DNA from: a virus
Lineage: Duplodnaviria; Heunggongvirae; Uroviricota; Caudoviricetes
Virus record (IMG/VR): IMGVR_UViG_2526164690_000046
Strand: one strand, 5' to 3'
DNA: 22,540 nt
A model generated the notes under the pieces. That model made no database searches, was not told the origin of the DNA, and saw only the letters and a program-made list of their open reading frames with translations. This document shows positions 18,679-18,730 of the stretch, piece by piece (position 1 is the first letter of the stretch; every line of letters starts with the position of its first letter). The translations under genes and the position numbers were made by a program.

Positions 18679-18730
18679 TAGTTATACGTTTAGTTATACG
18701 GGCTGGCGTATAACTAAAGCCGTATAACTA
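18679..18730. repeat. Four copies of TAGTTATACG (two direct, two inverted) upstream of the P4-type integrase
   Basis: Direct copies at 18679-18688 and 18691-18700; inverted copies CGTATAACTA at 18707-18716 and 18721-18730. Confidence 0.8.

What the first reader, a model, noticed from the sequence alone, without database searches (positions are those of the whole stretch)
18679..18730. Clustered TAGTTATACG repeats upstream of the P4-type integrase
Four copies of a 10-mer in a 2-direct plus 2-inverted arrangement within 52 bp are unlikely by chance. They lie between the candidate int promoter and the int start. AlpA is known to activate the integrase gene in CP4-57, so these are candidate AlpA or Int binding sites.
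Basis: partly seen in the sequence, partly recalled or inferred. Interest (0 to 1): 0.5.

Follow-up and report, generated by a model that had tools for sequence, protein, structure and literature searches.

The report
Integrase arm-binding sites of a satellite

Summary
There are four exact copies of TAGTTATACG, and the full unit is the 12-mer TTTAGTTATACG. Two are direct (18677-18700) and two inverted (18707-18732), 31 nt upstream of a P4-type integrase gene.

The AlpA interpretation is not supported; the "or Int" alternative is. The repeats lie in the int-proximal arm of the attachment site of an ~8.7-kb PICI-like satellite. Its left end, a tRNA-Pro 3'-end core, is at 18538-18545.

- Two more exact tandem copies sit at the other end of the island, 61 bp from the attR core. 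An attP-type junction in public data shows 2 copies, core, then 4 copies.
- Phage P4's record annotates 12-bp "attP arm sequence repeats" in the same layout, and CP4-57 has it too.
- Across 12 related islands the layout is kept, but the motif switches among three classes: TAGYTATAC, GGGACTAG and TAGGCATA. The switch follows the integrase N-terminal arm-binding domain, not AlpA or the rest of Int.
- The sites overlap the likely int promoter and leader, so Int autorepression is inferred, as shown for P4 and KplE1.

A different repeat, CACCGGAW, lies next to the core and just upstream of alpA. It is the better AlpA candidate.

This is a new member of a known kind, of low to moderate interest.

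The parts
18677..18688 (+). Arm-type site R1 (TTTAGTTATACG), int-proximal arm
   Evidence: Exact copy. The position is conserved in all relatives.
18689..18700 (+). Arm-type site R2 (TTTAGTTATACG), in tandem with R1 at period 12
   Evidence: The same 12-bp period is seen in P4 and CP4-57.
18707..18718 (-). Arm-type site R3, an inverted copy
   Evidence: It is conserved but tolerates substitutions in L007, L009 and L010.
18721..18732 (-). Arm-type site R4, an inverted copy at period 14 from R3
   Evidence: In L011, L014, L016 and L019 the equivalent copy ends 0-4 nt before the int ATG.
18538..18545 (+). Core-type remnant (GCCGACCA, the 3' end of tRNA-Pro) and left boundary of the satellite. In this window it is fused to a prophage gene instead of the tRNA.
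   Evidence: Phage similarity ends at 18537. In O26:H11 11368 the same sequence is the last 8 nt of tRNA-Pro.
18553..18580 (+). Three tandem CACCGGAW repeats at a 10-bp period, next to the core. They are candidate sites for the recombination directionality factor or AlpA.
   Evidence: 10 exact copies in the window against 1.14 expected. This assignment is inference only.
18592..18629 (+). Intrinsic terminator (12-pair stem plus T-run) supplied by the island. It terminates tRNA or upstream read-through before int.
   Evidence: Its position is conserved in all relatives, with the stem retained despite sequence changes. An equivalent hairpin is present in CP4-57.
18647..18654 (+). Fourth CACCGGAT copy. 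Degenerate copies lie at 18637-18644 and 18667-18674.
18662..18690 (+). Candidate int promoter by homology: -35 CTATCA (18662-18667), 17-nt spacer, -10 TACGTT (18685-18690) straddling R1/R2
   Evidence: This segment aligns with TTTACA-17-TAGATT, which the promoter scan flags in L014 and L016. The scan does not flag it in the window itself. Inference only.
18764..20005 (+). P4-family tyrosine integrase with an N-terminal arm-DNA-binding domain (residues ~8-95)
   Evidence: Pfam PF13356, PF22022 and PF00589. NCBIfam PRK09692. The N-domain matches PDB 3ju0 and 3jtz, the latter named 'CP4-like integrase'.
20467..20484 (+). Two tandem CACCGGAW copies at a 10-bp period, ending 18 nt upstream of the alpA ATG
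20502..20708 (+). AlpA-like helix-turn-helix gene (68 aa)
   Evidence: Weak Pfam Phage_AlpA hit, E = 0.0028, below the curated cut-off. RefSeq names the 97% identical Nissle protein 'AlpA family transcriptional regulator'.

Best explanation
The four TTTAGTTATACG units are arm-type binding sites for the N-terminal Arm-DNA-bind_3 domain of the adjacent P4-family integrase. They form the int-proximal arm of the attachment site of a small PICI-like phage satellite.

Together with two further tandem copies on the distal arm, which lies at the far end of the integrated island outside this window, they let Int bridge arm and core sites. That bridging assembles the intasome for integration into, and excision from, the 3' end of tRNA-Pro.

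The int gene is transcribed away from the att core, so its promoter and leader must lie within this arm. Int occupancy of R1-R4 is therefore inferred to repress int transcription (negative autoregulation), as shown experimentally for P4 Int and KplE1 IntS.

Shown here: sequence, position, copies on both arms, conservation of the layout, and co-variation with the Int N-domain. Inferred: physical binding by Int, and autorepression.
For: 1. The integrase carries the arm-binding domain (PF13356, E = 4.6e-23).

2. The island's left end is the tRNA-Pro core at 18538-18545, so the repeats lie 132 bp inside attL.

3. Two more exact tandem copies (period 12) lie at the other end of the island, 61 bp from the attR core. 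This holds in both the O26 and O111 copies. At up to 1 mismatch, 6 matches were found against 0.34 expected per 40 kb. All six islands whose right end was examined keep this pair despite different cargo.

4. An IMG/VR contig shows the contiguous attP-type order: 2 copies, core, 4 copies, int.

5. The phage P4 GenBank record annotates 12-bp 'attP arm sequence repeat' features with the same geometry. There are 2 tandem copies 53 bp from the core, then, 112 bp beyond the core, 2 tandem copies plus 1 inverted copy overlapping the int start.

6. CP4-57 in K-12 has the same layout with its own motif. Two tandem TAGGCCCA copies followed by CGTTGGGCCTAAA lie 133 bp from the ssrA end, and a distal pair lies 58 bp from the attR core.

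7. Among relatives integrated at tRNA-Pro in other genera, the layout and the 12/14-bp periods are kept, but the variable half of the unit switches in all copies at once. This includes the distal pair in L014.

8. The motif class is separated perfectly by Int N-terminal identity over residues 1-70. Pairs of the same class are at least 70% identical; pairs of different classes are at most 62.9%. The rest of Int and AlpA give no separation: their mean identity is about the same for same-class and different-class pairs (72 vs 71% and 69 vs 67%). In L011 versus L014 the rest of Int is 90.1% identical, AlpA 80% and the Int N-domain 54.3%.

9. For autoregulation:
- R4 ends 0-4 nt before the ATG in four relatives, with the Shine-Dalgarno sequence between R3 and R4, so the promoter must lie at or upstream of the sites.
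- A promoter-like TTTACA-17-TAGATT with its -10 on the R1/R2 junction is flagged in L014 and L016.
- The tRNA-to-int spacing is 218 bp in the 'same orientation tRNA-int' shape, which Panis et al. predict and validate as autoregulated (PMC2951348).
- P4 Int and IntI of PAI I536 repress their own promoters (PMC7286903).
Against: - There is no direct binding or expression data for this element.
- No sigma-70 consensus promoter is detected in the window itself, so the overlap of promoter and sites rests on homology.
- The sample has three motif classes plus P4 and CP4-57, so the co-variation rests on few independent switches.
- The inverted arrangement also gives a strong hairpin followed by a T-run in the E. 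coli variants, so an added RNA-level role is not excluded.
- The distal arm cannot be seen in the window; it was read in the same island in other genomes.
Confidence: 0.85

Rival explanations
1. The repeats are AlpA binding sites through which AlpA activates int transcription, or acts as excisionase.
For: An AlpA-like gene lies 500 bp downstream of int. K-12 AlpA is annotated as a transcriptional activator and is known from the literature to raise intA expression (my recollection). alpA is required for PICI excision (PMC11773190).
Against: The motif does not follow AlpA.
- L011 and L014 have 80% identical AlpA, near-identical in the helix-turn-helix segment, but unrelated repeats.
- L006 and L008 have AlpA proteins identical over residues 4-68, but repeats that differ consistently at one position, with a second difference in two copies.
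- Sites for directionality factors are normally on one arm only, whereas these are on both arms.
- No copy of the motif lies near alpA or the downstream operon in the window.
- A different repeat, CACCGGAW, is shared by attL and the alpA upstream region.
Confidence: 0.05
2. The inverted repeats act as an RNA hairpin in the int leader. It would work as a transcription attenuator or terminator, or as an element that sequesters the ribosome-binding site, rather than, or as well as, acting as protein sites in DNA.
For: The predicted hairpin is -35.6 kcal/mol with z = -4.06. Hairpin potential of -15.6 to -27.3 kcal/mol is retained in all 14 loci. In the E. coli variants the stem is followed by CCCTGTTTTTT. 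In L011, L014 and L016 the 3' arm covers the Shine-Dalgarno sequence and ATG. P4 lysogens reportedly make only short 5' int transcripts (Piazzolla 2006; my recollection, paper not held).
Against: - A hairpin does not require R1 = R2 and R3 = R4, yet the direct copies are identical.
- The distal-arm pair has no inverted partner.
- P4 and CP4-57 have only one inverted copy.
- Substitutions in L007, L008, L009 and L010 break pairs without compensation, and the fold energy drops to -15.6 kcal/mol in L010.
- If the homology-inferred promoter is right, the transcript starts within R2 and lacks the 5' arm.
- The terminator scan does not flag the structure, and there is no Rfam match.
Confidence: 0.08
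3. The repeats are iterons or operators for another island function, such as a replication origin or a binding site for the satellite's master repressor.
For: Tandem short repeats are typical of iterons. P4 carries separate ori/crr repeats.
Against: The copies flank the att core at both island ends rather than lying near the primase/helicase gene. They are retained in islands with different replication modules: RepA helicase, P4-type primase and DUF927. They co-vary with the Int N-domain.
Confidence: 0.02

Closest known systems
Phage P4 attP arm sequence repeats (Pierson & Kahn 1987; annotated in NC_001609)
   Same: - The repeat unit is 12 bp.
- Two tandem copies (period 12) lie on the distal arm, 53-61 bp from the core.
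- Two tandem copies plus inverted copy or copies lie on the int-proximal arm, 112-132 bp from the core and next to or overlapping the int start.
- The integrase is of the same family, with an Arm-DNA-bind_3 domain, and integration is at a tRNA 3' end.
- P4 Int represses its own promoter (PMC7286903).
   Different: - The motif is unrelated in its variable half (TTGGGGGCAYAW versus TTTAGTTATACG).
- P4 has one inverted copy; this element has two, at period 14.
- Int is about 48% identical in the N-domain and 36% in the rest.
- The target is tRNA-Pro rather than tRNA-Leu.
- The element is a PICI-like satellite with capsid and small-terminase genes, not P4-like in its cargo.
CP4-57 (ssrA-intA-alpA) of E. 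coli K-12
   Same: The order is the same: core, terminator hairpin, then two tandem copies plus an inverted copy just upstream of intA. A tandem distal pair lies 58 bp from the attR core. The repeat units also begin with TTTAG. An alpA gene lies downstream.
   Different: The motif is TAGGCCCAAC or TAGGACCAAC. There is one inverted copy, and the target is tmRNA. IntA is 55-56% identical. The CACCGGAW-type second repeat is not found upstream of K-12 alpA.
KplE1/HK620 attL-PintS module (Panis et al. 2010, PMC2951348)
   Same: The tRNA and int have the same orientation, so the int promoter overlaps attL. The IntS arm-type site next to the -10 box, together with sites for the directionality factor TorI, gives negative autoregulation. 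The intergenic length fits the 'autoregulated' class: 208-228 bp there, 218 bp here.
   Different: The integrase subfamily, the directionality factor (TorI) and the number and orientation of sites all differ. Regulation was demonstrated there and is only inferred here.
Lambda attP P1, P2 and P'1-P'3 arm-type sites
   Same: Int is heterobivalent: its N-domain binds repeated arm sites on both sides of the core, with Xis and IHF sites between arm and core (general knowledge; summarised in PMC2951348).
   Different: The N-domain family, site sequence and spacing differ. Lambda int is not transcribed from within attL.

Membership tests
Arm-type sites of a heterobivalent (P4-family) tyrosine integrase attachment site | The adjacent integrase has an N-terminal arm-DNA-binding domain | tested here: met
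   PF13356 Arm-DNA-bind_3, residues 8-95, E = 4.6e-23. The N-domain matches PDB 3ju0 and 3jtz.
Arm-type sites of a heterobivalent (P4-family) tyrosine integrase attachment site | The repeats lie within the att region, at a distance from the core crossover site, and on both arms of attP | tested here: met
   R1 is 132 bp from the core. The distal pair is 61 bp from the attR core. A contiguous attP-type junction is seen in L038. The distal arm is not inside the window.
Arm-type sites of a heterobivalent (P4-family) tyrosine integrase attachment site | The repeat sequence is distinct from the core-type sequence | tested here: met
   The core is CTCTCGTGCCGACCA; the arm unit is TTTAGTTATACG.
Arm-type sites of a heterobivalent (P4-family) tyrosine integrase attachment site | Site specificity follows the Int N-terminal domain | tested here: met
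   The three motif classes are separated perfectly by N-domain identity, but not by the rest of Int or by AlpA. L011 versus L014 shows a domain-plus-site swap.
Arm-type sites of a heterobivalent (P4-family) tyrosine integrase attachment site | Same geometry as the experimentally defined prototype (P4 attP) | tested here: met
   The unit is 12 bp, the tandem period is 12, and the layout is 2 distal copies plus 2 direct and inverted proximal copies.
Arm-type sites of a heterobivalent (P4-family) tyrosine integrase attachment site | Physical binding by Int, and a requirement for the sites in recombination | not testable with these tools
   This needs EMSA or footprinting and att-site mutagenesis.
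Negatively autoregulated int promoter embedded in attL (Panis 2010 'STI shape') | tRNA and int in the same orientation, with an intergenic region long enough to hold attL | tested here: met
   In O26 11368 the tRNA-Pro end and the int ATG are 218 bp apart and in the same orientation. The published range is 208-228 bp.
Negatively autoregulated int promoter embedded in attL (Panis 2010 'STI shape') | The int promoter physically overlaps Int binding sites | tested here: inconclusive
   No consensus promoter is found in the window. Promoter-like sites overlap R1/R2 in L014 and L016 and lie within the repeats in CP4-57. R4 ends 0-4 nt before the ATG in four relatives.
Negatively autoregulated int promoter embedded in attL (Panis 2010 'STI shape') | Int represses its own promoter in vivo | not testable with these tools
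   This needs a reporter fusion with and without Int.
AlpA operator | The repeat sequence follows the AlpA sequence across related elements | tested here: not met
   See L011 versus L014 and L006 versus L008.

The most novel reading that the evidence does not exclude
Satellites that share one core site (the tRNA-Pro 3' end), near-identical catalytic domains and similar AlpA proteins have exchanged the Int arm-binding domain together with all six arm sites as a single cassette (TAGYTATAC, GGGACTAG, TAGGCATA). This could be selected to make intasome assembly orthogonal, so that satellites competing for, or stacked in tandem at, the same attB do not excise or repress one another. That would amount to an incompatibility-avoidance system at the level of arm recognition. 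The 2+2 palindromic cluster might additionally act as an RNA hairpin that couples Int occupancy to int translation.
Probability: 0.15. Interest if true: 0.5.

Novelty: new member of a known kind. Interest (0 to 1): 0.25.

Why it matters
The finding defines the functional ends and the full attP, about 290 bp from the distal pair to R4, of a widespread E. coli/Enterobacterales PICI-like satellite that sits at tRNA-Pro in at least 435 of 5,426 complete E. coli genomes, including Nissle 1917 and O26/O111 STEC. It gives a natural specificity table linking arm-binding-domain sequence to arm-site sequence for P4-family integrases, which could help in predicting or engineering orthogonal integrases. 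It also reassigns the likely AlpA sites to a different repeat. None of this overturns current understanding.

Tried and rejected
- The sigma-70 promoter scan of 18300-19000 found nothing.
- An Rfam scan of the region gave only sub-threshold chance hits to miRNA and sRNA families.
- ARAGORN finds no tRNA in the window, because here the island is not at its tRNA but inside a prophage gene. The tRNA context had to be recovered from other genomes.
- The phage collection holds no close relative of the int region at DNA level.
- Most IMG/VR contigs start exactly at int, so they gave no upstream sequence. Only L034, L036 and L038 were useful.
- Piazzolla 2006 and Calì 2004, on P4 Pint and Vis, are not in the library. 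Their conclusions are cited through PMC7286903.
- A 7-mer sharing test between attL and the alpA upstream region across 10 loci was not decisive for the CACCGGAW-as-AlpA-site idea.
- The equivalent second repeat of CP4-57, AAGTCCKAAGAG, is not found upstream of K-12 alpA.
- Hairpin covariation was not used as a discriminator, because inverted protein sites co-vary in the same way.

Full report
**Observation**

The 10-mer TAGTTATACG occurs exactly four times in the window, at 18679, 18691 (+) and 18707, 18721 (-). At up to 1 mismatch, 0.57 matches are expected, and no shuffle in 100 reached four. The repeated unit is really the 12-mer TTTAGTTATACG. R1 and R2 are in tandem with period 12 (18677-18700). 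After a 6-bp spacer come R3 and R4, inverted with period 14 (18707-18732). The int ATG is at 18764. The protein has the Arm-DNA-bind_3, Phage_int_M and Phage_integrase domains and matches NCBIfam PRK09692.

**Context**

Window 1-18537 is a lambdoid prophage at the Rac (ttcA) site, with Q-region genes. From 18538 onward the sequence is a different element.

- The same element, 100% identical over 18540-20100, sits in E. coli O26:H11 11368 and many other strains immediately after tRNA-Pro, downstream of yejM. It is found in 435 of 5,426 complete genomes.
- It carries int, an AlpA-like helix-turn-helix gene, icd-like and ash-like genes, DUF4222, a RepA helicase, a small terminase subunit and a major capsid protein. 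It is thus an ~8.7-kb PICI-like satellite.
- Window 18538-18545 (GCCGACCA) corresponds to the last 8 nt of the tRNA, which is the att core.
- In this window the island is instead inserted inside a prophage gene of the DUF1737/nanS-p type. That gene is intact in phage YYZ-2008. Only 2 genomes share this arrangement.
- This explains why ARAGORN finds no tRNA in the window.
- The repeats therefore lie 132 bp inside attL, between the core and int.

**Copies on both arms**

Searching the whole island in O26 and O111 genomes finds six exact copies. Four lie upstream of int, and two more are tandem copies (period 12) at the far end, 61 bp from the attR core CTCTCGTG. At up to 1 mismatch, 0.34 matches are expected per 40 kb.

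Six E. coli islands at the tRNA-Pro site after yejM (Nissle 1917, SD134209, 2012C-4221, GS04, PKF4 and O26 11368) carry different replication and capsid cargo. All keep this distal pair and a conserved distal arm. STEC388 (L008) is rearranged and has no distal pair. One IMG/VR contig (L038) shows the contiguous attP-type order: distal pair, core, CACCGGA repeats, terminator, R1-R4, int.

**Comparison with prototypes**

The phage P4 record annotates 12-bp 'attP arm sequence repeat' features. Two tandem copies (period 12) lie 53 bp from the core. The core follows, and 112 bp beyond it lie two tandem copies (period 12) and one inverted copy overlapping the int start.

CP4-57 in K-12 has the same plan with its own motif. 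The order is ssrA end, terminator hairpin, TTTAGGCCCATTGA-TAGGCCCAACGA, then an inverted CGTTGGGCCTAAA 16 nt before the intA ATG. A distal pair, TTTAGGACCAAC-AATGGGACCAAA, lies 58 bp from the attR core. The layout in the window is the family layout, with one extra inverted copy.

**Who binds the repeats**

I compared relatives from E. coli (int 78-100% identical at nucleotide level) and other genera (Int 67-78% identical at protein level). All but the Edwardsiella island are integrated at tRNA-Pro.

All keep the 2 direct + 2 inverted cluster, the 12/14 periods and the invariant TTTAG start of each unit. The variable half switches in all copies at once, giving three classes:

- TAGYTATAC in E. 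coli, Phytobacter, Pantoea, Edwardsiella and Brenneria populi;
- GGGACTAG or AGGACTAG in Erwinia psidii and Rosenbergiella;
- TAGGCATA in Brenneria sp. L3-3Z.

In Erwinia psidii the distal pair carries the switched motif too. The Edwardsiella island sits at a different core site but keeps the TAGYTATAC arm units on both arms.

Pairwise identities show that the motif class is separated perfectly by Int residues 1-70. Pairs of the same class are at least 70% identical; pairs of different classes are at most 62.9%. Int residues 100-end and AlpA give no separation: mean identity is about the same for same-class and different-class pairs. The sharpest case is Pantoea (L011) versus Erwinia (L014): the rest of Int is 90.1% identical, AlpA 80% and the Int N-domain 54.3%, and the repeats are unrelated. 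Conversely, L006 and L008 have AlpA proteins identical over residues 4-68, but L008 has a T-to-C change in every copy along with a diverged Int N-domain. This is what arm-type Int sites predict, and it contradicts AlpA sites.

**Regulatory consequence (inferred)**

A strong intrinsic terminator supplied by the island (18592-18629) follows the core. It is conserved in position in all relatives, so int needs its own promoter downstream of it.

In four relatives R4 ends 0-4 nt before the ATG, and the Shine-Dalgarno sequence lies between R3 and R4. The promoter must therefore lie at or upstream of the repeats. The scan flags TTTACA-17-TAGATT, with the -10 on the R1/R2 junction, in L014 and L016. 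In CP4-57 it flags a promoter-like site embedded in the repeats. The aligned segment in the window (CTATCA-17-TACGTT, 18662-18690) is weaker and is not flagged.

This is the 'same orientation tRNA-int' shape of Panis et al. In that paper the IntS arm site next to the -10 box, together with the directionality factor, represses PintS, and several other such integrases were shown to autorepress (PMC2951348). P4 Int and Vis repress Pint, and IntI of PAI I536 autorepresses (PMC7286903). I put about 0.55-0.6 on Int autorepression here, against 0.85 for the arm-site identity.

**Rivals**

- **RNA hairpin.** The inverted arrangement predicts a strong hairpin of -35.6 kcal/mol with z = -4, and all loci retain hairpin potential. 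In E. coli a T-run follows it. Several points mark this as a by-product, though an added role is not excluded:
  - the direct copies are identical to each other;
  - the distal pair has no inverted partner;
  - P4 and CP4-57 have a single inverted copy;
  - substitutions in L007-L010 are not compensated.
- **Rfam.** Only chance hits were found.
- **Iteron or repressor-operator readings.** These do not fit the position on both island ends, nor the retention across different replication modules.

**Side finding bearing on AlpA**

CACCGGAW occurs 10 times exactly in the window, against 1.14 expected. Three copies are in tandem at a 10-bp period right next to the core (18553-18580). One lies after the terminator (18647). 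Two are in tandem at a 10-bp period just upstream of the alpA start (20467-20484), with inverted ACCGTT/AACGGT copies at about 20400-20430.

A directionality factor or regulator that binds both the att arm between core and Int sites and its own promoter would fit this pattern. Erwinia psidii shows the same pairing with ACCGGWT. A k-mer sharing test across 10 loci was not decisive, and K-12 alpA lacks an equivalent. This remains a lead.

**Verdict**

The feature is real and its kind is known. These are arm-type sites of a P4-family integrase in the attL of a PICI-like satellite, probably doubling as the operator for int autorepression. The AlpA reading is not supported. Novelty: a new member of a known kind. 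Interest is low to moderate, and lies mainly in the clean natural swap of arm domain and arm sites and in the satellite-within-prophage insertion.

Noticed in passing
window 18530-18550 (left junction); right junction in L002 ~29300-29325: The PICI-like satellite is inserted inside a DUF1737/nanS-p-type gene of a lambdoid prophage at the Rac (ttcA) site, instead of at tRNA-Pro. The intact gene reads ...GAGCCGGA-TT-GGTACTACG... in phage YYZ-2008. The junctions are GAGCCGGA|GCCGACCA and CTCTCGTG|GTACTACG, and 2 nt are lost. Only 2 of 5,426 complete E. coli genomes (O111:H11) share this. It looks like a secondary-site integration of a satellite into a potential helper prophage.
   Followed up: partly
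window 18553-18580, 18647-18654, 20467-20484 (plus inverted ACCGTT/AACGGT copies at 20400-20430): A second repeat family, CACCGGAW, has 10 exact copies against 1.14 expected. Tandem copies at a 10-bp period lie next to the att core and again ending 18 nt upstream of the alpA start. These are candidate AlpA or directionality-factor sites at attL and at the alpA promoter. Cross-locus support is partial (L014 yes; the k-mer test was inconclusive).
   Followed up: partly
window 18592-18629: An island-borne intrinsic terminator lies directly after the att core. It replaces the tRNA's own terminator, which is left at attR in L001 at ~28795-28822. The hairpin is kept at the same position across genera despite sequence changes in the stem, and CP4-57 has an equivalent one.
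   Followed up: partly
L001 28769-28790 and the equivalent attR in L004-L009: The attR core differs between islands exactly after CTCTCGTG: CC-AAAAA, GACCAAAAA, C-AAAAA, GGACCAAAAA, CGACCAAAAA. This points to the crossover or overlap position, or to decay of the non-functional tRNA remnant.
   Followed up: no
L038 2680-2975: An IMG/VR contig carries the distal arm, core and int-proximal arm contiguously. This attP-type junction implies either tandem islands or a captured circular form.
   Followed up: partly
L011 versus L014 (int genes at 10001-11239 of each): The Pantoea stewartii and Erwinia psidii integrases are 90% identical after residue 100 but only 54% identical in residues 1-70. This looks like a recombinational swap of the arm-binding domain together with all arm sites.
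   Followed up: partly
L004-L009 (islands at the tRNA-Pro site after yejM): Islands that share this att/int module carry very different cargo: RepA helicase, P4-type primase or DUF927; capsid and small-terminase sets, or ProQ/PerC. One (L008) is interrupted by IS1 and Mu-like fragments and has lost the distal arm pair.
   Followed up: no
window 18353-18601: The 82-aa ORF with a DUF1737 domain is a chimera. Its first ~61 codons come from the prophage gene, and its C-terminus is read from satellite att DNA. RefSeq marks it as a truncated pseudogene in L002.
   Followed up: yes
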